IMG/VR virus record: IMGVR_UViG_3300025141_016305 | Location: 64,001 to 128,000 of that record | Source: a virus | Strand: one strand, 5' to 3' | Length of the DNA stretch: 64,000 nt | In this document: positions 10,767 to 62,509 of the stretch, piece by piece | Numbering within the stretch: the first letter of the stretch is position 1 | Layout of the letters: the number at the start of each line of letters is the position of its first letter | Notes under the pieces: generated by a model | Databases searched by the model: none | Seen by the model: only the letters and a program-made list of their open reading frames with translations | What the model was told of the DNA's origin: nothing | Translations under genes and position numbers: made by a program

Positions 10767-11415
10767 ATAATATTTTTAACAACCTCTCTAAAGTGTTTTC
10801 TTTTTTTTCTTCATCTTCAGAAAAATACCATTTCCACACCAATGTTGATTCTATCATATGTAATTGCCTTTTGATATCATTTATTTTTTGTTGTGTTAAT
10901 TTTATTTTTGCCTCCGGGACAACTGGTATGTCTATTCCCAATTCTAGGGCGACATCTGCTAAAGTGACCAAATTATCGTCTTCCATGGCAGCGATAGCCT
11001 TTTTAAAAAGAGCTTCTTTTTCTTTTTTAGTTTCCCCCTCCAAAGAACTAGTTTTGTCAGGATGTATTTTTGATGCGATTTTTTTAAAAAGCTTTTTAAC
11101 TTCAGGATCCTTTGATTTATCCTGCTCTACTTTCTTTTTGCTTATTTCTTCTGGTGTTGGGCCAGGGGTTGGCGGACGTTGATGGGATTGTTGATTTGGA
11201 TCAGGCTTTGCAACTTGCCTGATCTTATCGCTCTCTGGTTCGTCATCTTCTTTGATGTCTTCTAAATTTTCGGCCGAAGTTGAAAATTTATTCTGATAGA
11301 TAGTATCAACTTCCTTTGCTGCACTGTTAAATATTTCCTTGGCAACGGCAAGTTCTGATGTTAAAGATCCCAACTTAACAGACAAAAGTTTTATCTTTCT
11401 ATGAGCGGGAGACAC
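10744..11415 (-). CDS. J-domain (DnaJ-like) protein
   Basis: EVKKLFKKIASKIHPDK...LFKKAIAA: helix II, HPD, helix III of a J domain, flanked by coiled coils. Confidence 0.8.
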   Translation of the reverse strand: MSPAHRKIKLLSVKLGSLTSELAVAKEIFNSAAKEVDTIYQNKFSTSAENLEDIKEDDEPESDKIRQVAKPDPNQQSHQRPPTPGPTPEEISKKKVEQDKSKDPEVKKLFKKIASKIHPDKTSSLEGETKKEKEALFKKAIAAMEDDNLVTLADVALELGIDIPVVPEAKIKLTQQKINDIKRQLHMIESTLVWKWYFSEDEEKKENTLERLLKILYEKNSRT

Positions 11416-12629
11416 TAAAAGTCCAGCCGCAACTTAAACATATAATCTTTATATTCACTTTTCTTTACAGGATTTGCCAATGACGCGACGGCTATTAAGT
11501 TTTTATGTTCATCATATATTCCTATTTTCGAAATATATGTTACGTTCTCAAATCTCGAATCATAACCAGTAAATCCAGAATTCTTAACATTTTTTATTTG
11601 GCCAGGAGACTCTATAAACCCTGCTTGGTCTAAACTACCTGATGCTTTATTGTTTTTGTCAATAAACGTTGGGTTATTAGAGTAGTTAAATTCCGAAGCG
11701 TCGGCGTGGGCTAGCATTGTAATTGTCGGTATCTTATTGGTTCCCTTAAACTTTACTTCGTACGAGGAATCAATTACATCGCCATGGGTAATTTTTGTTC
11801 CCACCATATCAAGGCCGGTTCCGAAAGATAGCCAATTGGGTGCAGAGTTACTCCCGGGTGCTAGGTATTTATCTTGATATGTACTGTTTTGGGCCAAGGC
11901 GCCTGTCAATAGCATAATCCCTTGATTGTATAATACCATGCCAATTTGTGACCCGGAATGAATTCCATGAGTTGATATCAGTTCTCCGTTACCGTAAATA
12001 TCTTTTGCTTGAGATGTTAAAGATCCGGTCACATAAAAATTCAATTCTACCGTCTCTTTTATCATTTCAGATCCATAAAATATAGATGGAACACAAATCA
12101 TGTTAACCTTGCTGGTTCCCAAGGTGCTATATTTAACGGCTGTTTTTGTCAAGGGGTTTTGAGTGTTTATGACATTTTTTAAAGCCCGAATATATTTTTT
12201 GTTATCTGCCGCAAAAGATGGATTCCCAGCGCCCTGTGCAGAAAAAGTATTTTCATCAAACTCTTGGCCGGTGTCGATGTATATTCTACTAATCGAGGCT
12301 GTTAAAGGCAAGGTGTGAGTCAGAGTGTCTCCATTGGAAAACTGGCTTGAATCATCAAATTGTGTTGCACTAATAGATCTAAACGCATACCTTGTTGTAT
12401 CTTTTGAAACAAATTGACTAACCAGGGAATTTGCGGGGCGATTAATATTAAGCTCGTATAAACTAACATTGCCCTGTTCCATATGTTTTACATTGTTTTC
12501 AAAGCTACCGCTAAAATTTTCTTCGTAATTTAGATATACATTGTTGTTGTTGATTATGAAGTTAAACTCGGGCTTTGCGACAATTGTGCTGTAAACAATG
12601 TCCCTTGTTTTAAACTTCTTGAAAGACAT
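11415..12629 (-). CDS. Virion structural protein (tail-collar/baseplate-like), paralogue of 12632..13999
   Basis: Shares EFNYSxNPT, Y(I/V)xx(I/V)GxY...NxLxAVAxLxxPxxK and a terminal L-x-x-RLD(F/Y) with the neighbouring gene. Confidence 0.65.
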   Translation of the reverse strand: MSFKKFKTRDIVYSTIVAKPEFNFIINNNNVYLNYEENFSGSFENNVKHMEQGNVSLYELNINRPANSLVSQFVSKDTTRYAFRSISATQFDDSSQFSNGDTLTHTLPLTASISRIYIDTGQEFDENTFSAQGAGNPSFAADNKKYIRALKNVINTQNPLTKTAVKYSTLGTSKVNMICVPSIFYGSEMIKETVELNFYVTGSLTSQAKDIYGNGELISTHGIHSGSQIGMVLYNQGIMLLTGALAQNSTYQDKYLAPGSNSAPNWLSFGTGLDMVGTKITHGDVIDSSYEVKFKGTNKIPTITMLAHADASEFNYSNNPTFIDKNNKASGSLDQAGFIESPGQIKNVKNSGFTGYDSRFENVTYISKIGIYDEHKNLIAVASLANPVKKSEYKDYMFKLRLDF

Positions 12630-12631
12630 TT

Positions 12632-13999
12632 TTAGTAATCCAGTCTAACCCTCAGAGTTAGCTCATTAGTAGGGTCTTTGCGCAAAGGCTCAGAAAGCTT
12701 TGCAACAGCTAACAATTCATTGTCAGCAGAATACATACCCACAGTCGTAACATAGGATCTGGGTAGAGCATCATACTCTCCGCCTTTGACTCTTATTTGT
12801 GACCCAGTTAAGTACGTAGGATTAGAACTATAATTAAATTCATTGTGATTTCCTCTGCAAAAATAAATAGTAGAATTTAATTCTGTTGTATTGTTGAACT
12901 GTATATTACAAATTCTGTGACGGTAATTATCACACATATCATTTATTGTACCAGATGCAAGCAAATTTTGAATCGGTGCATTAAGCGCGACACCATCTGT
13001 AGGGTATCTCGTGGCTGAGCTGGTCAAATTCATTGCTGCATTTACGCTTAACAAGCCGTCCATATCACGTTGGGCGTCGATATATCCGCCGACGGGATCA
13101 TCGGATGGTGAGGCCGCGTTGTACCCACCAACGTTGTGTAATCTTGAGTGGTCCAGCACCACAATTCCTGCTTGATAATATATTAAACCAACATTTAATC
13201 CAGTTCCACCGTTGGCAGAATTTGAAATTTGTATATGCCAAATTGTGTCTCCGCTTATTTCTGATGCTTTTAAAATTCCATACTCGCCGGCGGGTGAATT
13301 AATTTTATAGCTAGACTCTGCACCCGAATCAGAAATTCTTATTTGAGGACCTTTGGGTCCTTGAGGCAATGCGGTTGTCTTGTCATAACGGCCGACACCA
13401 TAATCGAACTGAAATGACCCTTTCTTTATTTCATCCTTAACAAGCAGTCTGGAAAAATTAATGAAAACTGGATCTAGAATTTTTTGTTGCAAGCGCCCAA
13501 AGGCACCGCGTCTGCCGTCGGCATCGGATGTAATGTCTGAATCGTTAAAATTTCCGTCTCTGTCAAACACTCTTATGTCGCCGTTTGAATCATAGCCGAG
13601 TAGTTGCTGAGCCATTTGATTGTATATATTGACTCTTTTGTTTGCTTGACCCAAACCAGAACCCGTAACGACTCTTTCATACAGTTGATCAGCATGTTCG
13701 TATACGCCCTCGAAGGAAGTCGCCATAGAGCCAGTGTTGGGAATTTTTCTGACTATACCACACGTGAGATCAAATAAATGATTTGCCGATGAACTAACAC
13801 ATGGATAGTCATATACAGACTGAAACATACCGTGAGTAAATGTTTTAATGTTATTCCCTCTCACTACAGTGTCAGTGCCTGCAGACTCTGCATAGGTGCC
13901 TGAAACCAATGTACCTGTAATTGGGATTGCCTCGTGAAGAAGCGTTCTGGAGTGGGCTCTTTCTGATTCCCCTAAACTTTTAAAAAATGTATTGGCCAT
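12632..13999 (-). CDS. Virion structural protein (tail-collar/baseplate-like)
   Basis: C-terminus YVTTVGMYSADNELLAVAKLSEPLRKD...LRVRLDY resembles the C-half of the P2 gpH-type tail-collar domain (DUF3751). Confidence 0.65.
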   Translation of the reverse strand: MANTFFKSLGESERAHSRTLLHEAIPITGTLVSGTYAESAGTDTVVRGNNIKTFTHGMFQSVYDYPCVSSSANHLFDLTCGIVRKIPNTGSMATSFEGVYEHADQLYERVVTGSGLGQANKRVNIYNQMAQQLLGYDSNGDIRVFDRDGNFNDSDITSDADGRRGAFGRLQQKILDPVFINFSRLLVKDEIKKGSFQFDYGVGRYDKTTALPQGPKGPQIRISDSGAESSYKINSPAGEYGILKASEISGDTIWHIQISNSANGGTGLNVGLIYYQAGIVVLDHSRLHNVGGYNAASPSDDPVGGYIDAQRDMDGLLSVNAAMNLTSSATRYPTDGVALNAPIQNLLASGTINDMCDNYRHRICNIQFNNTTELNSTIYFCRGNHNEFNYSSNPTYLTGSQIRVKGGEYDALPRSYVTTVGMYSADNELLAVAKLSEPLRKDPTNELTLRVRLDY

Positions 14000-14018
14000 T
14001 ATGTTCTCCTAACTTATG

Positions 14019-15056: not shown

Positions 15057-15085
15057 TAATATACTCCTTTTTACACAAAATCAAT

Positions 15086-15095
15086 TATAAATAGT
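15086..15095 (-). promoter_or_regulatory. Candidate late-promoter motif (sense ACTATTTATA)
   Basis: In a 101-bp intergenic gap, 29 nt upstream of ATG 15056, followed by an AAGGAG RBS. Confidence 0.6.
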
Positions 15096-15157
15096 ATTTT
15101 ACCTCTAATAATTCTATTTTATTTTACTAACAAGACTTACAATTACTGTTCGCTTTG

Positions 15158-18178: not shown

Positions 18179-18194
18179 AATATATTACTCACCT

Positions 18195-21380: not shown

Positions 21381-21399
21381 TTATTAATCTGTCTCCTGC

Positions 21400-22236
21400 T
21401 TAAACATTAGTGTTTTTATCTTTTTCTTGTAACTCTATCAAATCTATCGCATCGTCGACGTAAATGTTAAAAAACTTAAATATCTCTTCTCTGTCATCTA
21501 TTGGTATAAATACACCAGAACCTTTGCTAGTTTCTTTTAATATTTCTATTTCAAAATTTTCATCACCAAAAAGCGTACTATATTCTTCAACGTCTATTAC
21601 TAAATCTTCTTTATGTTTTTTGATTTTACTATTATCAGTAAATGTGACAACATCAGTTGTTAAGTCTATAAAAGAACTAGGTAAAACCGGTGGTGCCGTA
21701 TTGTTTGTTTCTGTTCTATCTACAATATAAGTATATTCTGGGTTTATTGTTATTTGCGGGGTACTGTTTATGACTCCGCTTGTGTGTAATACTTCTCCGC
21801 TACTGTGTAAATATGTTAAAGATCCTGTTATAGGGGCGCCATAGCTTTTAAGCGAAAAACTTGGAGCTGTCTGAGTTCCAAGATTACAAGATCCCAAAGG
21901 GTACTTTAATATTCTATCATTTTCTATAGGGTCTGAATATCTAGATATTTGATTAAAGACCCCTCTCTTTTCTTGTTTGATTAGTTCTGACTGATAATCA
22001 TAACTTGTCTCTATTCCTGTTGTCAAATACTGGTTCTTTAATCTAATGTCGTCTTTTATTCTTTGCTCTATATCGTTTTGGATCTCTTCTTTTCCTGTAT
22101 AAGATAAATCATATATTATATCGTCGTCGAAAAATTGATAATACACGGGCTTAAATGCGCCGCGGGCGAGAAGACTCCTGCCGAAGCGCGTTAGCTCTAT
22201 ATCAATAACTTCTTCTTTCTTGTTAAAAAAGCCCAT
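21400..22236 (-). CDS. Virion structural protein with a tail-collar-like N-terminus
   Basis: DIELTRFGRSLLARGAFKPVYYQFFDDDIIY matches the N-terminus of 14019..15056. Confidence 0.65.
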   Translation of the reverse strand: MGFFNKKEEVIDIELTRFGRSLLARGAFKPVYYQFFDDDIIYDLSYTGKEEIQNDIEQRIKDDIRLKNQYLTTGIETSYDYQSELIKQEKRGVFNQISRYSDPIENDRILKYPLGSCNLGTQTAPSFSLKSYGAPITGSLTYLHSSGEVLHTSGVINSTPQITINPEYTYIVDRTETNNTAPPVLPSSFIDLTTDVVTFTDNSKIKKHKEDLVIDVEEYSTLFGDENFEIEILKETSKGSGVFIPIDDREEIFKFFNIYVDDAIDLIELQEKDKNTNV

Positions 22237-24407: not shown

Positions 24408-24460
24408 AATAAAATTCCTTTTCCAAAATCAAAATTTACCCAATACGAACACTCAAGGGA

Positions 24461-27400: not shown

Positions 27401-30400
27401 GTGGCCAGAGCCTCCCAAAAAGGGGCCCGCGACTATCTCATCGTTTATATAATTGATCCAGCCGATGTGCGGCGATGAGCCCTGGGTGATAGTAAAACTT
27501 TCATGACCGAGAGAATTAGCTGATGAAGAAAGCGGTTCTCTAACTATTGTATTAAGACCAGCAAAATCAACGAACAAATGGCTGCGCCAGGAGGTGGGAG
27601 AAAATACTGATGGTGCATTCAAGCCATAAACCAAACCCAGCTGACCGGGATACTCTACAACGCCAAACTCAGATTGACTTAAAAATTGAATTGATTCTGC
27701 TGAACTAATTGTTTTATTACTTCTTGTAGTATCAGTGTTTAATTTTCTATTTTCAGCATGATGTGGTCCATACGTTGTCACATCTCCACCAATAAATTGA
27801 TGCCTAAAGCCGCCATTTCGCAGTAGAAAATATGACCCAGGATTAAGGTAGCTGGTGTCGGGATATATAACCTGTGAAGTTCTAATCCAACTGTAGCCCA
27901 AATCATAACTTGGTATTTCTCCTTGTACAAAACCGTTATACTTTGAGTACCTATCTAAAAAAGGATTACCAGCAATAGACTTATATGCAGAATGTACTCC
28001 AAAGGTGTCACCAAAAGTCGATGGTTTCGGAATTACTTCGCCGTTGGCATGCCGGGGGCGGTGGTCGATTACTGCATTACCCCGAGATCTTGCATAACCT
28101 CCAGTTGGGAGTAATGTATAAGTCTGAGCGAAAGGCTGGGCAGAATCATAATTTAAATCAGTTCGAACCCTAAGATTTCTGTAGTTCATTGTGCTATATA
28201 CGGAAAGCTCTCCTGATGCTTTATCATACTTGTATGAGTCTGCCCCTATGGCGCTACCAGATGGGTCGAAACTAGCTTCATGGGCAGAGAACCGATTTAC
28301 AATAACATGTTCGGTACGACCTCTATCTGGTAGGGCATAGTCTCTTTCAGGGTGATTTATAAACTGTGTTCTAACTGAAGATCCTGCAAAGAATTTACCT
28401 CCTGAAAAGCCCGTAATGGAATCAGTCCAAGCGCCGGTCCTTGAAAGCACAGTGTTGCCGTCTGGGCCGGCAGATGCTTGTGTTATGGTCAGAGTGCCAG
28501 TATTGACATTCCCCCCGTTTGTATGAACCACTGTCACTGTTGATCCGTGATTTGCATCGATGGCAGTCTTAAGATTATCTATCGATGCCCGGGCGTTGGC
28601 GCCTCTTGTCACTGTAATCTTTGGTGCCGAAGCAGAAACGCCTTCGTCCCGAAATTCATATGTCTTATCTACGCCTGTAGCGCTGATTATATTTACCTGG
28701 TTGCCAGAAGCGGGATTAGCATCGTATACAATCGTACCAACGGCTGCGAGTGGCTGAGCATTTGGCTGAGGTTGTTCTCTAGGTTCTCGTAAGTTTCTGG
28801 AAGTTCCGTACGGCTCTGTTCCAATAAAAGATCCTTCATTATCAATGAAATAATTGTTATTTGAGGCCCGGGCATTAGTTATGACAACTTCATAATCTTT
28901 GTTATAGTTGCCCAACAACAAAGAGCTAGTAGTATGTTTTATGTTTGCAATATTCATAAAACGCATACTTCCTAGATCTCGATGGAACATTGATTTAGGA
29001 GTGGAATTCATACCAGGAGATTTAACGGTTATTGAGCCGGCTGCCTCGACTATGTCATACCCCTCTGGCCGGTTTTGTTCCGGTGTGCCAAAGGGTACCC
29101 TTCTGTGGGGCATGCCTCCGACGTGAGCCCTAGTAAATGGACCCTGAAGGGCAGTTATGGAATCCTCATCATCATGGTTGTTTGTTATTGCTAGCTTTTC
29201 TTTAAAGTCGCTAAAGTCATTTCCTACAGAGGAACTATGCAAAGTAAAAGGTAGAATCAAATCTGCATCAGCGTCGAGATACCCATCTGTGTCGGAAGTA
29301 TCTGTTTTTGCTGTATATATCTTTTTCTTATTTGGGTCTAAAATATCATCGCACTTTTTAAAGTCATATATGTCGTTTGCGCTAATGCTAATTTCTTTCC
29401 CACTATTAATAACCTTATACAGGCCGTCAATTTTATTAGCTTTTCTGTTTGAACCTGGGATTAGAAAATCTTGTCTATCGACAGAGAATTTATACGGCTT
29501 TGTCAAACTTCGAAGCACATAAGTAGAACCCTCTACATCTTTTGTTATAATATTGTTTAATGTCTGGCGGCCTGCGGTGTTTTCTCTTTCTTTTCTTTCT
29601 TTCTGCCATAGGCAATTGTTAGCCTCATTGTCCGCCGAGTGGCCATGTTCCCAATCATATAAAAGCTCGTTAATGCCTAAGAATGGCGTTTCAGGCAAAG
29701 AAGGCTCTTTAAACTCAAGCGTTGGAGCTTTGTGTTGATACTTGTTTCTTTCTAGTGCGTGACTTTCTACAACGTTTTTTAAATCTGCCCTAAGATTGGA
29801 GCTAGCCGGTTGCAACTCGTACAACATTCTCCCTAGTGATGCATCAATCCATTTATAATAGTTAACAAACTGATCTAAATCAACGTCATTTTGAACTCTT
29901 GAAAAGAATTTTTCTTTTACCTTTTCAAGCATCTTGTAGTTTGGTCGATATTTATTAACAGGCTCACCAAGCATATTGTTAAAAGAAACTAAACCTGCTA
30001 CAAAATTGAGCATTTCTTTAGAAATAATTTGATACATGCTCTTCTCAAAAGCAAAATCATATGTTATTGGCCTACTGTCAGTTGTGAATTTATCAATTTC
30101 TTGATCTTTTATCTTAACCCTATCGCTAGTGTATGCATTATCAAGTTCCACATATTCCACACTTTGAAGATAATCTTGTACTATTGCAGTATTTTGATTG
30201 GTAAAGTTCTCAGAAATACCTGGATACTTATACCCTACAACTTCTCCATATTTTTCAACATCTCCCAAACTACCACTGGCAAAATCAACTATTGATAAAA
30301 CCGAAGAGCTGAATGCTGGGTTGTTGTCAAATTGCCAACTAAGTGCTAAAGTGTTAAGGTTTAATCTATTACTTCCAGTATTATGCGCATTTACAAGTTG

Positions 30401-33400
30401 AGGGTTTTCTCTTCCATAATTATTTACATTTAGAGCATGCTCTTTTATTTCATTGTGATTAAGCTTGTCCGTCCAAACATTTAAGAAAATGCCTCTTGTA
30501 TCTGCAGAATTAACAATGGCTCCAGTCAAATGGGTTCTCTCTGCTCCCATGTAGAAAGACTTGTTAAATTTAGACCAATACTCATATTCAGTTTGGTTTA
30601 TCGCAGAAGTTAAGTGAAAACTATTTCTCAACACATCTACATCATATTGCTTTCCTATGAATTCTACTTTGTATCCGTAATCATCTATTTCTCCAAATGG
30701 CACAGAACTATCTTTTGAAGCTATAACTGCAAAATTCCATCGAGAGTTATTATACACTTGTTGGTAATAACTGGAGGTGATTTCATGAAATTGGCCAAGA
30801 GAACTTGTTAATTTAAAGTAAGCTGTGTCGTCTTTGTTTGGATGTTTTATGGCTGACACATTGAAAGATAACTGATTTGAAAGATCTCCTCCTGTGTGTG
30901 TCGAAGGAGTTCCATCAGAGCCACTGTGCATACCAACACCAACCTGAGATGCGCCCCCGCCGACATTGTTGACTACAATGGCCTGATTTCCAGCTGCTCC
31001 ATTATTTTGGTTTTGAATATTGACGACTGTATTATCTAGTGTAGCATCGAAATTGGCCGGCAGGTTGTTTATTATTCTTTGTATTTGCGATGCGATTTCA
31101 GTATTTGTTAAATACCCCGTGTTCGATGGGCCGGCGAGTGAGGAACTTTGAGGGACGCCGCCCGGGGCAAAGATCCAATCTTGACTGTCAAAGCTGGCCG
31201 TCAGGACACGCTGTGTGGCTGCGGTGGCGATTTGAGGGCCGTTGCCGTTCCAATAGTGCTCCGGAGAGCTGTCACCGTCCTCACCACCATTAAGTCTCAA
31301 ACTCCCAGAAGCGAGCTGAGTCCAAGTGTCTTCTCCCGCGTATTGTGCGATGCGTACGCCCAGCGGCTGGCCAGTGCCGGCTCCCAAAGTGTTGTCGTCT
31401 GCTTTAACTTGCATCGTGCCCTGTACAATGCCCGCGTTCATAGGTGAGTAATAAGAAATACTGGCCGCTTCTGTAATGTTGTTCGCTCTCTGGTCTCCTG
31501 CTGCGTCCATGAGTTCAGTATTTTGTAACTTTATGTGCCCTCTTTGTGCAGCGTCCGTTATCGCCATGCCGACATTATAGAACCACTCGGTAATATGGCC
31601 GCCGGCGGCTGCAACTAAACTAAACTGAGAAGCCACAGAGTAGTCGTTATCCGAGTTTCTTCTAACTCTATTTTGGTAGGCAGTTTTTGTTCCTCCGCCA
31701 GAAGCAGTGATGCTTACGATGTTTGTCGAAAAAGAGCCGGTATCAACAAAATTAATCTTTAATATTTTTGTGTTTGCATCGAGGATCTGAATTTGGATTG
31801 GCTCAGACTTTCCAGATGACCAATGAGTCCTCCACATTCCATTGTATGTGCCAGAATCAGTACCTATCTGCAGCGGGTACAAGTAAAATTGAGCATAGCC
31901 GCCTGGAAATTCATGGTCGGAACCGTCGCCGCCAAAGTTGTTTCCTTTTTGAACTCTTGCATATACTGGTATGTTGTTCCAAGAAATATTATCGCCTCGA
32001 AGATAATTTGTTTTTGAATCATCATGTCTTGCTTCAAGCACTATCGTGTTTAAATCGTCATCATCACTAGCGCCGTCGATAATAGTGATCGTCGAACCAG
32101 TTGGAGGCGAAGATGCTATTGATATATAGCCGGATGACGAGGTAGCCGCAACGGCCGGTGTTGTAACTACAGGAGCGGAATCATAAGTTGGGCCGCAGCC
32201 ATAAAGGGAAGAATTAGTTATGGCTGCGGGTACATTAAGTTTTGGAAAAATAAAAGAACCCTCAGCTGTCCAAGGCGTCATCAAATAAGTTGAACCAGAC
32301 ATAAACTTTCTAGTCTCTTCTTCATTAGAGGCTGAACTTGTTTGTATTATATTTGCGTCTTTATTAACCCCTTCGAAAGAGATCGTTTTCTTCTTTACAG
32401 CAGTATAAACTGGTTCGTTTAAAATCTCTCTTTCTTCGTTGTTTGCATATACATTAAGGCGTATAAGATTTTCGTCAATACCAAAGCACCTTATAAGGTT
32501 TCTGTATGAAGCTTCTGTTCCTTTAGATTTAAAAATATGATTTAAATTTCTATAAATATTTTTAAGAATCTTATTTTTAATATCATACGTATTTTGTTCA
32601 AAAAGAATAGAAGGAGATTGGGGGTCTCCTTGTCCATAAAACATCTCTTCGATAGTTTCATATCTAGATAGCGCTGATTCTGTATAGTTCGATCCCTTTG
32701 GAGGATCCACATTAAAGCCGCGGCCCATGAGCTGTAATCTTGCAAGCTTTGAATTATCTTCAAACCCTGCAGAATTAACTGAAAATTCATTTGCGCAACC
32801 AAACAAATATTGATCATCAGAAAATACATAATTTGAACCTGTAACGTTTGTAAATTCTGTTAATTCTGACGATTTAATTCTTGTCAGATTATCGATATAA
32901 GATTTAATGCTATCGAATTCTGAGGCCATGGCCTGTAGGAGAATCCCCATCTGACTCTTTATATTACTCGACCCCTCTCCGTCAGAATCGTACGCCCATT
33001 GTGGGACACTTTTCGCTAATGCTGTATGGTTTTGTGAATCATATCCTTTGCCGATCTTAATATATTCTTGCAGTGTACCCCTCGTTAGAGCCTCATACAT
33101 TACTGGGTCGGCGGATTCGTTATTAACTGCAGCGGAATCAGTTATAGCAGATCCGGCTACTCTAGAGGTGCTATTATAGCCAACAAATAAACCATTGGCT
33201 ATTCTTCCGGAATAGTCCAATATTATATTATCTGTCGAGTCTTGGCCTAAAATTCCTTCATTAAATTTATAATATAGCCCTAGGCCCGGGGCATGAGTGA
33301 TATCATCAACAGTTGCACCATATACCGGTTTGTCATAATAGACGCCTATTTCCCTTGCGTTTCGCTCAGTTTTCCAAAACCTAAAATCATCCACTGATCC

Positions 33401-34534
33401 GGATAATTTTCCCCAACCTAGGCCGGCTTGGGTAGTGGTTGTAACAGTAGAGACGGGTGCGGCTGCTGCACCAATAGTACCAGACATTGTTAATAACACT
33501 CTACCAACATTTGTACTATTCTTGATTGTCTCTTGTGGGTGGCCGGCAGTGTCTTTCTCCAAAACACCATCAACATAAAGTCTAGCTTTTAGAGCGCTGC
33601 CAGTATTTGCTACAGATACAGCATAGTGATGCCATTTACCATCAGCTACCTGGCCAGAAGTTAGATTAGTGGTTATTTGTCGACTTGAAAAGCCTACGTT
33701 GCCAGACAGATATGTAACCAAAAAAGGGTTAGAGCTAGATCCAGTTAATTCGACCAAAAATCGCCCATGGCCGGTATTAGCTGGAAGTGGTGAATTTACT
33801 GTGTATGAATCAAATACAACTTCTCTTTTGGATGCGTCTTCAAATTTAGATTTTTTCAACCAAAATTCAACAGTATTTCCATGTTCACCATCTATCTCTA
33901 TGTTGTTGGTCATCCTCAGCGAGGGAAGATATCTAGTATTAGGATTCACCCCACCATCAAAAGCAATATATTCTAATTTATCTGTAAGGTTATAATATGT
34001 AGAATTGGAACTTATAGAACCAGTATCACTTAAAGAAAAATTAACGTACCCAGTGGCTTTCGGATAAACATGTCTAAGAACTGAAACGTCTAACGCTGAA
34101 GCGCTCAATAACCACTCCAGCCTTTCGGCCCTTGAACCATCATAAGGATAAGTCTCTGTTATCCTATAAAACGCATCTCTATAATATTGTTCCGCGGAGC
34201 CATAACAAGCAAAAGTTGAAGGATCCTTAAAATCAACACTTGGCCTGATTAAGTTTTGAAGCTTGTGATGGGCGCTTATAAACCTATTTGACTCTATATC
34301 ATTCTCAATATTGCTGCCAATAGTGTCACTTATTCCCATACCGTGCTGAGGGCCTAAATACTGAGGGTTACCTATCGGCCTTGGTTCTTCCACTTCTGGG
34401 AGTCTATTCTGAATTCCTGATTCTGTATTTGCCCTGCCAGAAGGAGCACCAGGATTAAGATCCCTGTTGGTCTCTTCTTCTAAACCGGTAGCTCTGGTTC
34501 TTGGCGGGGGGAGGTTGTTGTTGTCATGACTCAT
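24461..34534 (-). CDS. Giant tail/baseplate-associated protein (3357 aa) with LamG/concanavalin-like domains
   Basis: LamG signature at about 33190-33880: TVEFW...DGKWHHYAVS...LYVDG...SGSVDDFRFW...LYYKFNE. IFKSKGTEASYRNLIRCFG resembles the KGT motif of baseplate wedge/P2 gpI-like proteins. A second LamG-like domain is interrupted. Confidence 0.75.
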   Translation of the reverse strand: MSHDNNNLPPPRTRATGLEEETNRDLNPGAPSGRANTESGIQNRLPEVEEPRPIGNPQYLGPQHGMGISDTIGSNIENDIESNRFISAHHKLQNLIRPSVDFKDPSTFACYGSAEQYYRDAFYRITETYPYDGSRAERLEWLLSASALDVSVLRHVYPKATGYVNFSLSDTGSISSNSTYYNLTDKLEYIAFDGGVNPNTRYLPSLRMTNNIEIDGEHGNTVEFWLKKSKFEDASKREVVFDSYTVNSPLPANTGHGRFLVELTGSSSNPFLVTYLSGNVGFSSRQITTNLTSGQVADGKWHHYAVSVANTGSALKARLYVDGVLEKDTAGHPQETIKNSTNVGRVLLTMSGTIGAAAAPVSTVTTTTQAGLGWGKLSGSVDDFRFWKTERNAREIGVYYDKPVYGATVDDITHAPGLGLYYKFNEGILGQDSTDNIILDYSGRIANGLFVGYNSTSRVAGSAITDSAAVNNESADPVMYEALTRGTLQEYIKIGKGYDSQNHTALAKSVPQWAYDSDGEGSSNIKSQMGILLQAMASEFDSIKSYIDNLTRIKSSELTEFTNVTGSNYVFSDDQYLFGCANEFSVNSAGFEDNSKLARLQLMGRGFNVDPPKGSNYTESALSRYETIEEMFYGQGDPQSPSILFEQNTYDIKNKILKNIYRNLNHIFKSKGTEASYRNLIRCFGIDENLIRLNVYANNEEREILNEPVYTAVKKKTISFEGVNKDANIIQTSSASNEEETRKFMSGSTYLMTPWTAEGSFIFPKLNVPAAITNSSLYGCGPTYDSAPVVTTPAVAATSSSGYISIASSPPTGSTITIIDGASDDDDLNTIVLEARHDDSKTNYLRGDNISWNNIPVYARVQKGNNFGGDGSDHEFPGGYAQFYLYPLQIGTDSGTYNGMWRTHWSSGKSEPIQIQILDANTKILKINFVDTGSFSTNIVSITASGGGTKTAYQNRVRRNSDNDYSVASQFSLVAAAGGHITEWFYNVGMAITDAAQRGHIKLQNTELMDAAGDQRANNITEAASISYYSPMNAGIVQGTMQVKADDNTLGAGTGQPLGVRIAQYAGEDTWTQLASGSLRLNGGEDGDSSPEHYWNGNGPQIATAATQRVLTASFDSQDWIFAPGGVPQSSSLAGPSNTGYLTNTEIASQIQRIINNLPANFDATLDNTVVNIQNQNNGAAGNQAIVVNNVGGGASQVGVGMHSGSDGTPSTHTGGDLSNQLSFNVSAIKHPNKDDTAYFKLTSSLGQFHEITSSYYQQVYNNSRWNFAVIASKDSSVPFGEIDDYGYKVEFIGKQYDVDVLRNSFHLTSAINQTEYEYWSKFNKSFYMGAERTHLTGAIVNSADTRGIFLNVWTDKLNHNEIKEHALNVNNYGRENPQLVNAHNTGSNRLNLNTLALSWQFDNNPAFSSSVLSIVDFASGSLGDVEKYGEVVGYKYPGISENFTNQNTAIVQDYLQSVEYVELDNAYTSDRVKIKDQEIDKFTTDSRPITYDFAFEKSMYQIISKEMLNFVAGLVSFNNMLGEPVNKYRPNYKMLEKVKEKFFSRVQNDVDLDQFVNYYKWIDASLGRMLYELQPASSNLRADLKNVVESHALERNKYQHKAPTLEFKEPSLPETPFLGINELLYDWEHGHSADNEANNCLWQKERKERENTAGRQTLNNIITKDVEGSTYVLRSLTKPYKFSVDRQDFLIPGSNRKANKIDGLYKVINSGKEISISANDIYDFKKCDDILDPNKKKIYTAKTDTSDTDGYLDADADLILPFTLHSSSVGNDFSDFKEKLAITNNHDDEDSITALQGPFTRAHVGGMPHRRVPFGTPEQNRPEGYDIVEAAGSITVKSPGMNSTPKSMFHRDLGSMRFMNIANIKHTTSSLLLGNYNKDYEVVITNARASNNNYFIDNEGSFIGTEPYGTSRNLREPREQPQPNAQPLAAVGTIVYDANPASGNQVNIISATGVDKTYEFRDEGVSASAPKITVTRGANARASIDNLKTAIDANHGSTVTVVHTNGGNVNTGTLTITQASAGPDGNTVLSRTGAWTDSITGFSGGKFFAGSSVRTQFINHPERDYALPDRGRTEHVIVNRFSAHEASFDPSGSAIGADSYKYDKASGELSVYSTMNYRNLRVRTDLNYDSAQPFAQTYTLLPTGGYARSRGNAVIDHRPRHANGEVIPKPSTFGDTFGVHSAYKSIAGNPFLDRYSKYNGFVQGEIPSYDLGYSWIRTSQVIYPDTSYLNPGSYFLLRNGGFRHQFIGGDVTTYGPHHAENRKLNTDTTRSNKTISSAESIQFLSQSEFGVVEYPGQLGLVYGLNAPSVFSPTSWRSHLFVDFAGLNTIVREPLSSSANSLGHESFTITQGSSPHIGWINYINDEIVAGPFLGGSGHAQAGKDLAGLSGDGAGLVLNSIILNRQGPYGWPSWKQTRGGSHPVMRHHRKNNTFSIVRRGTSFNVSSLMDYHFSFHPAEQINVPNANKDGTGSETGAVPVTTKTSARTVENYKDIFATNRFNPLTLTKHRMKRPTDSAFAELGTLMIRGNATSQLVEHQMWNADEYYYNVATDPSQELGLLQERFSEEGDATENFIFDVDSIQSIREVMHGSVSLRVSFQNELTTYANPEIIKDLNVDEIKPHRFDAIYETWFPESTAQNKDRELRELNYIETIYPREENTFTKNARTREGFVFHGYPTAVRADRTYTRAPEHKTPTNDNVIGGWSDNTSYRHTTIQRPDYWQYRYTVSGTFADMSPMVLPIIKTYKKSISVPGRHQIWPERMLNTEINEKNHFQHTFFGSYQYINARQIHDDSISLGDLDYTALSLTAMTMSSWPLDGPLMDPVEIQNTWGGNYTGIAQIHSWGLRGPSSGYTLKTWMRNRMDQRSDSAGSLNKGGGQGGRGQGMFQNDFGNWPCGLNLIYGTPPPSIVYNRKIPQTAYIRAADAGTAGEEYLAGEAIWSAADNKPKPFFNSYEEYRDEMRRVGQDHSIVPEFRISEYVEKFFDLDSFSDISCIKDDFLSLTGAIHQHSSGDIQVGSQFFKTYGTSDFMKYFGVVTERLDVQEKFDKPYAGGMVPTKLTLRCQAVKRFLPYRGFYPAERIMQLGEIFHDNYLKSGSYSAAPNSYITGGLPNHARYNLLDHRIRASKQQAMKLIFGPGILMNSIKAGLAVDYPMLPIRDVGPGQGKSQFVPEGGNPFPGATGDYCLTNILATEWILTESCQMACFADVAHTHICSGSATEKIADLTGTDYLYQFKGVMGDPVVSLTTSGSSDSSTWHFMSSLGTIYTAGFTGSLLNRTTDEGIPRLHGGVYSYDVDNPYYIRDEKKGILSRVPNNFIVEDFPADSNLQEPIKPETYTLYYGPQVCNAFWYLGLPEGSG
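28398..28750 (-). repeat. Protein-level repeat module (A-x-G-x-I...T-Q...G-N-T...F-x-G-G), copy inside the 3357-aa protein
   Basis: Aligns by eye with copies at about 30900-32160 and 35452-35829. Confidence 0.65.
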
Positions 34535-36399
34535 GGATTCACTCTAAACTTAAACTTTTCTTTTTGCTCAACAAAATCAGTACTATCTTTGTAGAGAAAA
34601 CTTATTTCATATAAATAGTTTGGCTCTAAAATTGACATATCTAAATCGAAAAATAAACCTTTTTCATCATAAGATAATGAAGAAAAGCTAGGAGAACTAC
34701 CAGTGGAATAAGGTATAATCTCTAAATTGTCTGATACTCTCACAACTCTGTAATAGGCATCTTTTATAATCGTGGCTGTTGCTGTATTGCTAGCAACTGT
34801 ATAAATATTTGGTTGCCATGATTTATCTCTAGTAAAAATCCTAAAAGTATAAACTTCATTTTTGTCATATGAAGATTTTAAATTAGTAATATTTGTAAGA
34901 TAAGAAGGTATCTCCATATAGGAGCCAGGAGACTCAGTTGTTACCGTAAAGCCCGAACCTGTAAAAATTTGTTCGTGCCCTGAACTGCCTGTTGTACTCC
35001 AGACGTCTATCAACTTTGTCTCCGTGCCTGCATATGCAAACTCTGCTTTATATATCCCCTTGGAAGCTCTACTAGCGGTTATATGACTCAGGTTGATAGT
35101 AGTCACGCCACCGCCTTGAGAAAGGGCTTCAGCCGGGGCGGAGGCAGATGTATGCAATTGTACTAAGAGGGCTGACCCCGTATTTGGAATATCTACCAAA
35201 TTGTTTCTTCTTCTGTTATAGAGATAAATATTATTAAGATTATCTGCAGGGGGAGCTAAAGAGCTAGATTTTATAACACTGCTTCTGTCATCTTTAGTGG
35301 AAGCATCCCACTGTGCCTCTATAACCGGTCTTTTGAAAAAATTGTGAGAAGATCTTGCAAAAAACTTCTTAGTATAAAAAGATCTTAACTGTGCTCCATC
35401 TTCATATGAGCCGCTTAATCTTAATACAAAACCATTATTTGGGGCGCCTGTTCCGCCATTAAAGCTATTAAGTACAGCAACAGCTTCAGCCACACTTGAA
35501 GAAAGTGTTGTGTTTCCATAAAATCCCCTAATATTTTGGGTTAAGCTAGCAGTTACCTCTGAGGCGTTTTCATTTGCTCCGACTTTTGTTGCAGAAATGG
35601 CTGATCCTAAACCACTATTGTTTATCTCTTGAACTAAACTCTCGACAGATCCAGTGAGACCGGTCGACCCGATTGGGACCAAGACTGTTTTTCCAACAGA
35701 GCCACTAGTGTTAGAAAATTTAAATATTCTATGATCTCCCTCGTGAGAGTATATTTTAAATTCACTATCAACGGATACAGGCGTTGCAAGATTAGCCCCT
35801 TTAAAAACAATCGAACCAGTAGCTGCTGTTGATAACCCTTTGTAATCTTTTATGAATTCTTCTGTTATAGCTGTGACGTCGATTATAAAATCTTCCGTTC
35901 CGATATCAAACCCAGCTTGATAGTCTAATGGTGCCAATGGATTGTGTATAATTGCCGGGTCTGCGTAGTCGCTCCCCTGATTGTGCCAAGCTAAACCGGT
36001 ACTACATGAAACCCAGTTACTATTTCCAACATCTGTGAAGGATTCCATGTCGAGACCAGTACCCTCACTCCAATCCCTAACTAAAGGATGTGCAGTTACT
36101 GAAAACTTTTCGGGAGTAGTCTGCCCATGGGCAGCGTTAAAGAGTTTTAACTTAAAAGTAACGGATCCAGAACCCAGCATATATGCACTATCTCTATCAT
36201 TTGAAATTCCACTGACTGGGATTTGTACCAAAATTCTAGATTGCTCTAGTGAAGAAGTGTTGGATTGGCCAAATATTGAAAAAATCTCTACTATATCTGA
36301 AGAACCCATATTGGCCAGGGTCGCTCTGTTACTTAAATTTGTTTTAAAAGCAGAAGAAATGGTGTTGTCTTTTCCAGCTATATATCTTTTTATAGACAT
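34531..36399 (-). CDS. Virion structural protein (622 aa) with a DNRLRE-like N-terminal beta domain
   Basis: KDNTI...N.G...VEI...SRILVQ...KLKLF...WSEG...W...NNGFVL...RP.IE pattern; very rich in TGS/SGS. Confidence 0.6.
   Translation of the reverse strand: MSIKRYIAGKDNTISSAFKTNLSNRATLANMGSSDIVEIFSIFGQSNTSSLEQSRILVQIPVSGISNDRDSAYMLGSGSVTFKLKLFNAAHGQTTPEKFSVTAHPLVRDWSEGTGLDMESFTDVGNSNWVSCSTGLAWHNQGSDYADPAIIHNPLAPLDYQAGFDIGTEDFIIDVTAITEEFIKDYKGLSTAATGSIVFKGANLATPVSVDSEFKIYSHEGDHRIFKFSNTSGSVGKTVLVPIGSTGLTGSVESLVQEINNSGLGSAISATKVGANENASEVTASLTQNIRGFYGNTTLSSSVAEAVAVLNSFNGGTGAPNNGFVLRLSGSYEDGAQLRSFYTKKFFARSSHNFFKRPVIEAQWDASTKDDRSSVIKSSSLAPPADNLNNIYLYNRRRNNLVDIPNTGSALLVQLHTSASAPAEALSQGGGVTTINLSHITASRASKGIYKAEFAYAGTETKLIDVWSTTGSSGHEQIFTGSGFTVTTESPGSYMEIPSYLTNITNLKSSYDKNEVYTFRIFTRDKSWQPNIYTVASNTATATIIKDAYYRVVRVSDNLEIIPYSTGSSPSFSSLSYDEKGLFFDLDMSILEPNYLYEISFLYKDSTDFVEQKEKFKFRVNP
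34610..34620 (-). promoter_or_regulatory. Candidate late-promoter motif (sense AACTATTTATA) upstream of the 3357-aa gene
   Basis: Exact motif in the 3' end of the upstream gene, 75 nt before ATG 34534. Confidence 0.45.
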
Positions 36400-38736: not shown

Positions 38737-38752
38737 AAAACTATCCTCCAGA

Positions 38753-38762
38753 TATAAATAGT
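38753..38762 (-). promoter_or_regulatory. Candidate late-promoter motif (sense ACTATTTATA)
   Basis: Intergenic, immediately upstream of the GGAGG RBS of the gp25-like gene (16 nt before GTG). Confidence 0.6.
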
Positions 38763-38801
38763 GATTTATCAATATTCTTTGCAAATAAGTTTGTTTACAT
38801 T

Positions 38802-54489: not shown

Positions 54490-54491
54490 CT

Positions 54492-55493: not shown

Positions 55494-55494
55494 T

Positions 55495-57255: not shown

Positions 57256-57258
57256 TTT

Positions 57259-57903: not shown

Positions 57904-57905
57904 AA

Positions 57906-58568: not shown

Positions 58569-58571
58569 TTT

Positions 58572-59228: not shown

Positions 59229-59243
59229 TTATACTCTCCAATT

Positions 59244-62508: not shown

Positions 62509-62509
62509 T

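What the first reader, a model, noticed from the sequence alone, without database searches (positions are those of the whole stretch)
11415..36399. [S/T]-[G/A/S]-S tripeptides saturate a subset of virion proteins: candidate sequon for phage-encoded virion O-glycosylation
Seen (hand counts): the 622-aa protein has about 15 motifs, including 6 TGS (ATGSI, LTGSV, NTGSA, TTGSS, FTGSG, STGSS) plus SGS, TAS, SAS, SSS and TSS. The 3357-aa protein has more than 30, the 723-aa about 7, and the 404- and 455-aa proteins about 5 each. In contrast, I found none in the equally long adjacent gp6-like wedge (618 aa) and only a handful in the 3606-aa protein. The motifs are dispersed, not tandem, and often follow a hydrophobic residue. 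The same genome region encodes at least three glycosyltransferases and pathways for GDP-deoxy-amino sugar and CMP-nonulosonate. Inference: the tripeptide is an acceptor sequon that coats exposed tail/baseplate proteins with a phage-made glycan, for shielding, stability or receptor mimicry.
Basis: partly seen in the sequence, partly recalled or inferred. Interest (0 to 1): 0.88.

Follow-up and report, generated by a model that had tools for sequence, protein, structure and literature searches.

The report
Ser/Thr-Gly-Ser tag on phage tail proteins
The outer tail and baseplate proteins of this 175-kb marine T4-like phage carry the tripeptide Ser/Thr-Gly/Ala/Ser-Ser three to six times more often than chance; the excess goes with a conserved pair of phage sugar-transferase genes, so it is probably where a phage-made sugar coat attaches, but no chemistry shows this.

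Summary
[ST][GAS]S occurs 15, 34, 7, 5 and 5 times in the 622-, 3357-, 723-, 455- and 404-aa proteins, 0 times in the gp6-like protein and 5 in the 3606-aa protein.

The excess survives global, local and dipeptide-aware nulls. It is directional and uses mixed codons, so it acts at protein level. TGS and SGS are the two most over-represented of all tripeptides in these proteins.

It is kept in 120 homologs of the 622-aa protein and in 51 related phage loci, while gp6/gp25/3606-aa homologs stay at or below expectation. Sites lie in mixed secondary-structure contexts.

The sugar cluster is a hypervariable island of soluble enzymes. At its edge, outside the window, sits a conserved, translationally coupled pair of GT4 glycosyltransferases. 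The pair is present in 16 of 17 relatives and is predicted to form a complex.

Four lineages with the pair, on three host phyla, show the excess. T4, two cyanophages, two siphoviruses and a megaphage with only one of the two GTs do not.

The sequon reading is therefore credible but circumstantial, confounded by shared ancestry and chemically untested. Follow-up reports of this scan reached the same reading on at least ten other phage genomes.

The parts
34531..36399 (-). 622-aa outer baseplate protein, a chain of beta-sandwich domains. It has 15 [ST][GAS]S sites, 9 of them [ST]GS.
   Evidence: 15 vs 5.1 expected, z 4.6. All 120 homologs are enriched: mean 16.4 vs 5.2 for the broad motif and 7.3 vs 1.3 for the core. 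Eleven sites are kept as the motif class in more than half of the homologs, ten of them in over 75%. AF2 model pLDDT 81; Foldseek matches only multi-Ig-like adhesins and antibodies. No Pfam or PHROG family.
24461..34534 (-). 3357-aa giant baseplate/fibre protein with a LamG-like lectin domain at residues 214-396. It has 34 sites, 18 of them [ST]GS.
   Evidence: 34 vs 12.3, z 6.2. Laminin_G_3 E 2e-10. 28 homologs in related loci total 928 vs 292 expected. Singleton sites are at chance (126 vs 139); the excess sits in about 53 sites shared by 5 or more of 23 sequences.
22236..24407 (-). 723-aa virion protein of no known family; 7 sites.
   Evidence: 7 vs 1.6, z 4.4, p 0.0005. No credible family hit.
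12632..13999 (-). 455-aa virion protein whose C-terminus is related to that of the 404-aa protein; 5 sites.
   Evidence: 5 vs 1.6, p 0.014. Paralogy with the 404-aa protein. Atlas neighbours are viral hypothetical proteins only.
11415..12629 (-). 404-aa virion protein; 5 sites, 4 of them [ST]GS.
   Evidence: 5 vs 1.7, p 0.03; core 4 vs 0.52, p 0.002.
36413..38269 (-). gp6-like inner baseplate wedge protein (618 aa); the contrast case with 0 sites.
   Evidence: 0 vs 1.6. PHROG baseplate wedge, E 1.5e-13. 52 homologs total 42 vs 83 for the broad motif and 8 vs 21.7 for the core.
38272..38784 (-). gp25-like baseplate wedge protein (170 aa); 0 sites.
   Evidence: Pfam GPW_gp25, E 2.4e-11. 29 homologs total 3 vs 4.9.
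38802..49622 (-). 3606-aa giant protein upstream of gp25; not enriched.
   Evidence: 5 vs 7.4. 10 homologs total 30 vs 44. No Pfam family.
53518..63953 (-). In-window part of a roughly 20-kb sugar island of soluble enzymes. It holds GDP-mannose 4,6-dehydratase, a NeuC-like 2-epimerase, NeuB, a cytidylyltransferase, two DegT aminotransferases, a GNAT, a GT11-like GT, a PhyH-like dioxygenase and a GT2.
   Evidence: Pfam and PHROG hits. The island continues to genome position 137764 with GT29-, GT17-, GT11-, GT2-, GT-D- and GT8-like enzymes. It ends at the conserved GT pair at genome 137761-141092, which would be window 73761-77092 and so lies outside the window. No polytopic membrane protein in its 28 ORFs.

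Best explanation
[ST]-[GAS]-S (core [ST]-G-S, with uncharged and often hydrophobic flanks) is most likely the acceptor or recognition motif of a cytoplasmic modification of outward-facing tail proteins, probably O-glycosylation. Shown: the motif is real, acts at protein level and is retained by selection at dozens of sites. It is confined to the peripheral baseplate and fibre proteins, the neck protein and the outer domains of the sheath. Shown: the phage encodes about 24 kb of soluble sugar-nucleotide enzymes and glycosyltransferases in a hypervariable slot. One edge of the slot holds a conserved, translationally coupled pair of GT4 (GT-B) enzymes, both with the E-x7-E signature. Here one of them is fused to a GT2 domain. 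Inferred: the two GT4 proteins form a heterodimer that primes Ser/Thr of the motif on newly made tail proteins. The variable enzymes of the island then build a strain-specific glycan, here probably containing a GDP-6-deoxy-amino sugar and a nonulosonic acid. The result would be virions whose tail surfaces carry a variable sugar coat. The purpose of such a coat is not addressed by any result here.
For: The motif statistics survive three kinds of null, and the motif is directional and codon-independent.

Conservation: all 120 homologs of the 622-aa protein are enriched, with swaps within the class at fixed columns (for example TGS 88, TSS 13, TAS 12 at one site). In 51 related loci the 622- and 3357-aa families run at 3.5x and 3.2x, while the gp6, gp25 and 3606-aa families run at 0.5-0.7x.

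Sites are not tied to one structural element.

In the sheath all 8 sites lie in residues 134-631 and none in the conserved C-terminal core 637-997. The same holds for phage immuto, where all 10 sites lie in residues 62-393 of 709.

Among five related sheaths only two motif columns are shared, yet counts stay at 6-13 against 2.9-4.4 expected.

The GT pair: Pfam GT4 and GT4+GT2. It is present in 16 of 17 relatives at 54-70% identity, with at least 7995 and 3956 metagenomic clusters.

Complex prediction supports binding: score 0.83, best of 3 controls 0.00. The mark was reached by 58 of 80 solved complexes and 2 of 110 mismatched pairs; runs agree in at least 97% of contacts; partner pLDDT is at least 88.

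Tracking, with [ST]GS observed/expected: the adjacent pair is present and the excess is seen in this family, in Flavobacterium phage immuto (42/18.5; one protein 12/1.3), in Rhodothermus phage RM378 (45/17.3) and in Microcystis phage Mel-JY01 (41/20.5; one protein 13/2.5).

No pair and no clear excess in T4 (11/14), cyanophages Bellamy (30/22.5) and S-MbCM100 (50/29.8), and siphoviruses phiPsal1 and TJE1. Megaphage LR756508 has one GT and no partner in its whole record; its two homologous sheaths carry 1 and 0 sites.

The island is all soluble, and the genome has no Wzx/Wzy-like protein. No thymidylate-synthase/dCMP-hydroxymethylase homolog was found.

In relatives the partner GT carries instead a Maf/MptE-like domain (PF01973), matched over its full length but below threshold in 8 of 8 tested. 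From my own knowledge, Maf proteins are the flagellin O-glycosyltransferases for nonulosonic acids.
Against: No glycan has been detected on any of these proteins.

All pair-bearing phages are each other's nearest relatives by sheath similarity, so co-occurrence may simply be co-inheritance.

In the 622- and 3357-aa families the whole excess sits in inherited sites. Lineage-specific sites are at chance, 0.96 and 0.91, as a structural constraint would also give.

Ser over Thr at position 3 is no stronger than at other conserved Ser columns of the same alignment.

The major capsid protein, portal and tube are not enriched, so this is not a whole-virion coat.

There is no proteome-wide avoidance of the motif; other proteins run at 0.76-1.67x.

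RM378's sheath is not enriched (2 vs 1.7), and Bellamy's, without the pair, is mildly so (6 vs 2.2).

Exposure of the sites could not be computed.

The GT pair could act on another cytoplasmic acceptor.
Confidence: 0.5

Rival explanations
1. Structural motif without modification. [ST]-small-S, flanked by hydrophobic residues, is a packing or hydrogen-bonding element of lineage-specific beta-sandwich and fibre domains. Two hydroxyls would face out and a small residue face in. It would be inherited with those domains, and the sugar island would serve something else.
For: The carriers are all-beta, Ig-like or LamG-like. The flank pattern fits in/out alternation of a strand. The excess comes from conserved sites, and new sites arise only at the chance rate. 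Some sites overlie a generally conserved Gly of the LamG fold; this rests on my own recollection of the Pfam consensus and was not tested. Immuto's fibre protein shows short six-residue periodic runs of [ST]GS-hydrophobic-x-x.
Against: Sites sit in strands, loops, helix N-caps and disordered loops in the same proportions as the chain as a whole. G, A and S swap at the same column, so a backbone-conformation need for Gly is unlikely. T4's beta-rich fibres, gp7, gp10, gp12 and the Ig-like Hoc show no excess. The homologous sheaths of megaphage LR756508 have 0-1 sites. Sheath sites turn over between close relatives while the count stays high. BLAST finds no shared paralogous domain among the carriers.
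Confidence: 0.27
2. The motif is read by something other than a glycosyltransferase. Candidates are another modification (phosphorylation, acylation), a tail-assembly chaperone, or a processing protease.
For: Any linear-motif reader would explain a conserved short motif that occurs in mixed structural contexts and only in a subset of virion proteins. Small residues at three successive positions resemble protease or peptidase sites in general; this is my own knowledge, not a test.
Against: Nothing of this kind turned up among the roughly 70 proteins scanned against Pfam or PHROGs, but no dedicated search for a kinase, acyltransferase or protease was made. The one enzyme set that tracks the motif is the GT pair. 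Fifteen to thirty-four cleavage sites per structural protein is implausible.
Confidence: 0.1
3. Chance, low-complexity composition, or a nucleotide-level signal.
For: The motif class was defined after looking at the data. The weaker carriers (404, 455 and 419 aa) are only nominally significant. The DnaB helicase's four hits are all SSS, SAS or TAS and look like chance.
Against: An unbiased tripeptide scan ranks TGS and SGS first and second of all tripeptides. Local and Markov nulls fail to remove the excess. Codons are mixed. The excess recurs in 120 homologs down to 46% identity and in 51 loci down to about 31%, and in three other phage lineages.
Confidence: 0.02

Closest known systems
GtfA/GtfB priming complex of serine-rich-repeat adhesins (Streptococcus, Staphylococcus, Limosilactobacillus; review PMC6973325)
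   Same: A cytoplasmic two-protein GT complex, conserved in every locus, is described as starting O-glycosylation of Ser/Thr. A variable number of further GTs then gives strain-specific glycans (PMC6973325). Here too a conserved, adjacent GT-B pair that is predicted to bind sits beside a hypervariable set of GTs. The acceptor class (S-A-S, S-S-S, S-G-S) resembles the Ser-X-Ser dipeptide repeats of these adhesins; that comparison is from my own knowledge.
   Different: There is no DUF1975 domain. Both phage proteins keep E-x7-E, so neither looks like a non-catalytic chaperone. The acceptors are dispersed tripeptides in folded beta-sandwich virion proteins, not long low-complexity repeats. There is no SecA2/Y2 export. 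Sequence similarity is only at the GT4 superfamily level.
Virion glycosylation of mycobacteriophages by phage-encoded glycosyltransferases (Freeman et al. 2023, Cell Host Microbe; known to me through PMC12619734; the paper itself is not held)
   Same: Phage-encoded GTs modify the phage's own structural proteins in the cytoplasm. It is the only documented case of tailed-phage virion glycosylation that my literature searches returned.
   Different: There the glycans sit at the C-termini of capsid and tail-tube subunits (PMC12619734). Here capsid and tube are not enriched, and the candidate sites are dispersed over tail periphery proteins. The phage lineage, hosts and GT genes differ. No sequon was reported, to my knowledge.
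Maf-type flagellin O-glycosylation with nonulosonic acids (Campylobacter, Aeromonas, Clostridium; Pfam PF01973)
   Same: A cytoplasmic CMP-nonulosonate pathway (NeuC/NeuB/cytidylyltransferase) lies next to a protein-directed transferase in a hypervariable glycosylation island. Multiple dispersed Ser/Thr sites on an exposed structural polymer are modified, with a preference for nearby hydrophobic residues (my own knowledge).
   Different: This phage's partner GT carries a GT2 domain, not a Maf domain. The Maf-like match is in relatives only and is below Pfam's threshold (16-26 bits against a cut-off of 34.6). Flagellin has no strict tripeptide sequon.
Flavobacterium phage vB_FspM_immuto_2-6A (NC_055915.1), Rhodothermus phage RM378 (NC_004735.1) and Microcystis phage Mel-JY01 (PP395634.1)
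   Same: These are cultured phages with the same adjacent GT pair and the same motif excess in a few virion proteins. They are the closest isolates by sheath similarity.
   Different: They are only 26-43% identical in shared proteins. The 622-aa protein has no match in any deposited phage record. Their deposited records list the carrier proteins only as hypothetical or structural proteins.

Membership tests
GtfA/GtfB-type two-component protein O-GlcNAc transferase | Two adjacent GT-B (GT4) proteins that form a complex | tested here: met
   Pfam Glycos_transf_1/Glyco_transf_4 in both proteins, with a 4-nt gene overlap. The complex model scores 0.83 against a best control of 0.00; the mark was reached by 58 of 80 solved complexes and 2 of 110 mismatched pairs. 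This is a model only, and solved GT-B heterodimers exist, so the pass may partly reflect likeness.
GtfA/GtfB-type two-component protein O-GlcNAc transferase | DUF1975 domain that mediates subunit and substrate contact (PMC6973325) | tested here: not met
   hmmscan of both proteins at E up to 1 lists no DUF1975 family.
GtfA/GtfB-type two-component protein O-GlcNAc transferase | One subunit catalytic, the other a non-catalytic chaperone | tested here: inconclusive
   Both proteins keep an E-x7-E stretch in the aligned C-terminal Rossmann domain. Activity cannot be judged from sequence.
GtfA/GtfB-type two-component protein O-GlcNAc transferase | Conserved priming pair plus variable extending GTs in one locus | tested here: met
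   The pair is found in 16 of 17 relatives. The GT genes of the island have no counterpart (E 1e-5) in four near-complete relatives; a few sugar-nucleotide enzymes (GDP-mannose dehydratase, an epimerase, an aminotransferase, NeuB) do. All five genomes carry sugar genes in the same slot.
GtfA/GtfB-type two-component protein O-GlcNAc transferase | Acceptor is a long serine-rich repeat region of a secreted adhesin | tested here: not met
   Sites are dispersed and not tandem, in folded virion proteins.
Mycobacteriophage-type virion glycosylation | Glycans on the C-termini of capsid and tail-tube subunits | tested here: not met
   Major capsid protein 2 vs 2.0 and tube 1 vs 0.5; neither is enriched.
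Mycobacteriophage-type virion glycosylation | Covalent glycan demonstrated on virion proteins | not testable with these tools
   This needs mass spectrometry or glycan staining of virions.
Maf (PF01973) flagellin nonulosonic-acid transferases | MptE-like/Maf catalytic domain | tested here: not met
   The domain is absent from this phage's pair, which has GT2 instead. Relatives give full-length matches below threshold in 8 of 8 cases.
Maf (PF01973) flagellin nonulosonic-acid transferases | Linked CMP-nonulosonate biosynthesis genes | tested here: met
   NeuC-like epimerase, NeuB and cytidylyltransferase at 54492-57255. NeuB occurs in only 2 of 17 relatives, so this sugar is not part of the conserved core.
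Bacteroidota general O-glycosylation, sequon D-[ST]-[AILVMT] (my own knowledge) | Asp before the acceptor; periplasmic transfer | tested here: not met
   Charged residues at position -1 are depleted to 6%. The trait also occurs in phages of Microcystis and Rhodothermus, so it is not tied to that host phylum.
T4-type DNA glucosylation | Hydroxymethyl-pyrimidine synthesis (a thymidylate-synthase-family hydroxymethylase) as the acceptor pathway | tested here: not met
   No PF00303 match in the 96%-complete genome. The Tet/JBP test was uninformative because its control did not ring.

The most novel reading that the evidence does not exclude
An abundant lineage of aquatic T4-like phages, with thousands of metagenomic clusters and hosts in at least three phyla, has a general sequon-directed O-glycosylation system. 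A conserved GT4 heterodimer would prime [ST]-[GAS]-S sites on the outward faces of sheath, neck, baseplate and fibres. A hypervariable island would then build strain-specific glycans, here with a nonulosonic acid. This would be the first sequon known for phage virion glycosylation.
Probability: 0.45. Interest if true: 0.85.

Novelty: new variant of a known kind. Interest (0 to 1): 0.68.

Why it matters
Virion glycosylation of tailed phages is documented so far only for mycobacteriophages. If the reading holds, it would also be a core, sequon-directed trait of a very abundant group of marine and freshwater phages.

The hypervariable sugar island would then be under the kind of diversifying pressure seen in O-antigen and flagellin-glycosylation loci. 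That would bear on host recognition, on escape from host or grazer recognition, on virion stickiness and decay in seawater, and on how "auxiliary metabolic" sugar genes in phage genomes are read.

The motif gives exact residues to test. Three cultured phages carry the system: immuto, RM378 and Mel-JY01. The question can therefore be tested directly.

Tried and rejected
- DNA-level motif: rejected, because codons are mixed.
- Local compositional bias: rejected by block shuffles.
- Dipeptide bias: rejected by a first-order Markov expectation.
- A shared paralogous domain among the carriers: none by all-against-all BLAST, except the C-termini of the 404- and 455-aa proteins.
- A single structural repeat or turn: rejected for the 622-aa model.
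- Host-phylum (Bacteroidota) explanation: rejected, because carriers also infect Microcystis and Rhodothermus.
- Proteome-wide avoidance of the motif, as a sign of off-target cost: not seen, 0.76-1.67x. The depletion in gp6/gp25/3606-aa homologs is therefore only family-level and is inflated by shared ancestry.
- Faster-than-chance gain of new sites: not seen in the 622- and 3357-aa families.
- Ser-versus-Thr specificity at position 3 as a chemical argument: no stronger than at other conserved Ser columns.
- A conserved GT inside the variable island: none found by BLAST or phmmer.
- Naming the carriers: PHROGs, Pfam and the protein atlas gave nothing useful for the 622-, 723-, 455- and 404-aa proteins. 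Foldseek gave only generic Ig-like matches.
- DNA and protein searches of deposited phages with the 622-aa region: no match.
- Solvent exposure of the sites: could not be computed, because model coordinates are not delivered to the script box.
- Freeman et al. 2023: could not be read.
- Tet/JBP search: uninformative.
- Megaphage LR756508: only 200 of its 484 kb were scanned for the motif, so its baseplate genes were not seen.

Full report
**Setting.** The window is positions 64001-128000 of a single 175,011-bp phage record with GC 0.39, which CheckV rates 96% complete. All large genes lie on the minus strand.

The gene order is that of a distant T4-like myovirus:
- a 3606-aa protein
- gp25-like (Pfam GPW_gp25)
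- gp6-like wedge (PHROG)
- the 622-aa protein
- the 3357-aa protein
- the 723-aa protein and smaller virion proteins

The sheath, tube, neck protein, major capsid protein, portal and terminase lie just upstream of the window or at its start. No deposited phage matches the 622-aa protein or its DNA. The nearest isolates by sheath are Microcystis phage Mel-JY01, Rhodothermus phage RM378, Flavobacterium phage immuto and an uncultured 484-kb phage.

| Protein | [ST][GAS]S observed | Expected from shuffles |
|---|---|---|
| 622 aa | 15 | 5.1 |
| 3357 aa | 34 | 12.3 |
| 723 aa | 7 | 1.6 |
| 455 aa | 5 | 1.6 |
| 404 aa | 5 | 1.7 |
| gp6-like, 618 aa | 0 | 1.6 |
| 3606 aa | 5 | 7.4 |

The excess survives every null I applied:
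- Shuffling inside blocks of 10, 20 or 40 residues leaves z between 4.0 and 5.8 for the three main carriers.
- Four of the five reordered motif classes reach only z 1.0-3.0. S[GAS][ST], which shares SGS, SAS and SSS with the motif, reaches 5.9, against 11.4 for the motif itself.
- Without any prior motif, TGS (27 vs 4.9) and SGS (22 vs 5.6) are the two most over-represented of all tripeptides in the carriers. They are at or below expectation in the other 46,000 residues of the genome.
- A first-order Markov expectation still leaves 2.3-2.5-fold excesses. [ST]G is followed by Ser 49 times and by Thr 13 times.
- Codons at the sites are mixed, with both serine codon families at both positions, so the signal is in the protein and not the DNA.
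- Compared with chance occurrences in other proteins of the same genome, carrier sites avoid charged flanks (6-7% vs 27%) and prefer a hydrophobic residue after the Ser (54% vs 29%).

Further carriers lie outside the window: a 777-aa protein next to the sheath (12 sites), the 1001-aa sheath (8) and the gp13-like neck protein (4). The capsid, portal, tube, hub and terminase are not enriched.

**Conservation.** The 622-aa protein has hundreds of marine homologs.
- All 120 best homologs, down to 46% identity, are enriched. The mean is 16.4 vs 5.2 for the broad motif and 7.3 vs 1.3 for [ST]GS.
- Eleven sites are kept as the motif class in more than half of the homologs, ten of them in over 75%, with swaps inside the class. 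One column reads SSS 61, TSS 30, SAS 14, SGS 6, TGS 4. Another reads TGS 88, TSS 13, TAS 12.
- In 51 related viral contigs the dichotomy repeats. Homologs of the 622- and 3357-aa proteins run at 3.5x and 3.2x. Homologs of gp6, gp25 and the 3606-aa protein run at 0.5x, 0.6x and 0.7x.
- In both large families the excess is carried by inherited sites. After masking recurrent sites, the remainder is at chance, 0.96 and 0.91. New sites therefore arise at the chance rate and are then retained.
- In the sheath only two motif columns are shared by five relatives. Counts nevertheless stay at 6-13 against 2.9-4.4 expected.

**Structure.** The AlphaFold2 model of the 622-aa protein (75-row alignment, pLDDT 81) is a chain of beta-sandwich domains. 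Foldseek returns only multi-Ig-like adhesins, complement and antibodies.

Motif residues split 23 coil, 18 strand and 4 helix, like the chain as a whole (333/247/42). They show no preference for strand starts, at 6 of 15 against a 0.39 background. So this is not one repeated turn.

In the sheath all sites lie in the large non-core part (residues 134-631), and none lie in the conserved C-terminal core. The same holds for immuto's sheath.

**Sugar genes.** The window holds GDP-mannose 4,6-dehydratase, a NeuC-like epimerase, NeuB, a cytidylyltransferase, two DegT aminotransferases, a GNAT, a PhyH-like dioxygenase and two GTs.

The cluster runs on past the window end. There it has GT29-, GT17-, GT11-, GT2-, GT-D- and GT8-like enzymes, a methyltransferase and an FdtA-epimerase fusion. 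None of its 28 ORFs is a polytopic membrane protein. The genome has no flippase- or polymerase-like protein and no thymidylate-synthase-family hydroxymethylase. This favours a cytoplasmic acceptor other than lipid-linked polysaccharide or hydroxymethylated DNA.

In four near-complete relatives the same slot, between conserved flanks, holds sugar genes. Their GTs show no detectable homology to this phage's; only a few sugar-nucleotide enzymes are shared. One relative, for example, has an NDP-hexose 2,3-dehydratase pathway. NeuB occurs in only 2 of 17 relatives.

**The conserved GT pair.** At the far edge of the island lie two genes that overlap by 4 nt. One encodes a 689-aa protein (GT4-like N-terminal part plus a GT2 domain) and the other a 421-aa GT4 enzyme. 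Both keep E-x7-E.
- The 421-aa enzyme is found in 16 of 17 relatives at 54-70% identity. Against the near-complete relatives it is 53-59% identical, where the sheath is 38-45%.
- It has at least 7995 metagenomic clusters, and its partner at least 3956.
- The partner occurs alone (about 425 aa), fused to GT2, or fused to a domain that matches the Maf/MptE-like family. That match covers the full length but is below threshold in 8 of 8 cases tested.
- A complex model supports binding. The score is 0.83 against a best control of 0.00. The mark was reached by 58 of 80 solved complexes and 2 of 110 mismatched pairs. Runs agree in at least 97% of contacts, and the partner pLDDT is at least 88. This supports binding but does not show it. 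Solved GT-B heterodimers exist, so likeness may contribute.

The lead to look for such a pair came from earlier notes of this scan on other genomes. I located and tested it here independently.

**Does the motif track the pair?** Only 12 of 50,697 deposited phage records hold a homolog of the 421-aa GT, and strong partner matches occur only in immuto and Mel-JY01. The adjacent pair is present in immuto, Mel-JY01 and RM378.

| Phage | GT status | [ST]GS observed/expected |
|---|---|---|
| Immuto | pair | 42/18.5; 373-aa protein 12/1.3; sheath 7/1.3 |
| RM378 | pair | 45/17.3; a block of six adjacent proteins enriched |
| Mel-JY01 | pair | 41/20.5; a structural protein 13/2.5 |
| T4 | none | 11/14, including its fibres and Hoc |
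| Cyanophage Bellamy | none | 30/22.5 |
| Cyanophage S-MbCM100 | none | 50/29.8; no protein above 2x |
| Siphovirus phiPsal1 | single distant GT4 | 5/6.4 |
| Siphovirus TJE1 | single distant GT4 | 13/10.1 |
| Megaphage LR756508 | one GT, no partner in the whole record | 49/30.0 over 200 kb; sheath paralogs 1 and 0 sites |

The megaphage sheath aligns with this phage's sheath over its full length. The hosts of the carriers span Bacteroidota, Rhodothermota and Cyanobacteriota, so the trait follows the phage lineage and the pair, not the host.

Caveats:
- The carriers are each other's closest relatives, so these are few independent contrasts.
- RM378's own sheath is not enriched, and Bellamy's is mildly so.
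- Only part of the megaphage was scanned.

**Reading.** The best-supported explanation is that the tripeptide marks sites of a cytoplasmic modification of outward-facing tail proteins. Most likely this is O-glycosylation primed by the GT4 pair and extended by the variable island.

The architecture parallels the GtfA/GtfB system of serine-rich-repeat adhesins, which has a conserved priming pair and variable extending GTs (PMC6973325). It also parallels flagellin glycosylation islands. It is not a member of either family: there is no DUF1975, both subunits look catalytic, the acceptors are dispersed, and this phage has no Maf domain.

The only documented virion glycosylation in tailed phages that my searches returned is in mycobacteriophages, on capsid and tube C-termini (PMC12619734). 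Here those proteins are not carriers.

A purely structural role for the motif remains a serious rival, because the excess lies in conserved sites and exposure is untested. I put the glycosylation reading at about 0.5, the structural reading at about 0.27, another reader or modification at about 0.1, and artefact at 0.02.

**Novelty.** My literature searches found no report of this motif or of glycosylated virions in this phage group. Within this scan the same motif and the same reading have been reported by follow-up agents on at least ten other phage genomes. This window is a further member of the group, not a first sighting.

Noticed in passing
window 52055-53047 and genome 137761-141092 (L003:9761-13092), with the same slot in G005, G006, G009 and G010: The sugar cluster occupies a hypervariable slot of 9-24 kb between conserved flanking genes in all five near-complete genomes. 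Each phage carries different GTs and mostly different sugar pathways, like an O-antigen or flagellin-glycosylation island.
   Followed up: partly
proteins P0252, P0254, P0258, P0263, P0270, P0291, P0297, P0305 (relatives of L003:9761-11830:-): In many relatives the partner GT4 is fused to a roughly 240-aa C-terminal domain instead of GT2. That domain matches the Maf/MptE-like family PF01973 over the full profile but below threshold (16-26 bits; cut-off 34.6). It may be a distant protein-directed nonulosonate transferase domain.
   Followed up: partly
L003:1282-1911:-, L003:1914-2591:-, L003:3322-4071:-, window 61675-62508: The island contains small soluble proteins that match eukaryote-type GT families at modest E-values: GT29 sialyltransferase, GT17 and GT11 fucosyltransferase. 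This is unusual for a bacteriophage.
   Followed up: no
window 62510-63169: A PhyH-like 2OG-Fe(II) dioxygenase sits inside the sugar island. It could hydroxylate a sugar or a protein side chain; its role is unknown.
   Followed up: no
L002:1601-4606:- (genome 45601-48606): The tail sheath is 1001 aa, with about 640 residues of extra domains ahead of the conserved C-terminal core. Megaphage LR756508 has two tandem 824-aa sheath paralogs related to it over their full length.
   Followed up: partly
window 24461-34534 and 38802-49622: Two giant virion genes (3357 and 3606 aa) flank the gp25/gp6/622-aa genes. Only the first carries the motif. The 3606-aa protein has no recognisable family at all.
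   Followed up: no
window 10733-11182 (+): A 149-aa ORF antisense to the 223-aa gene shows 4 motif hits (vs 1.8). It is probably not a gene; the hits are most likely just the reading of the opposite strand.
   Followed up: no
phage records MT889387.1, NC_031231.1, NC_048728.1 and others: Weak homologs (23-25% identity) of the partner GT are annotated glycosyltransferases in Arthrobacter and Streptomyces phages, which belong to the actinobacteriophage group where virion glycosylation is documented. In the five Arthrobacter phages they lie 15-16 kb into 58-61-kb genomes.
   Followed up: no
L099 (Pontimonas phage phiPsal1) 6979-9351: A GT4, a methyltransferase and a GT2 sit between the major capsid and neck genes of this small siphovirus, much as GTs are said to sit next to the capsid gene in mycobacteriophages. 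There is no [ST]GS excess in its proteins.
   Followed up: partly
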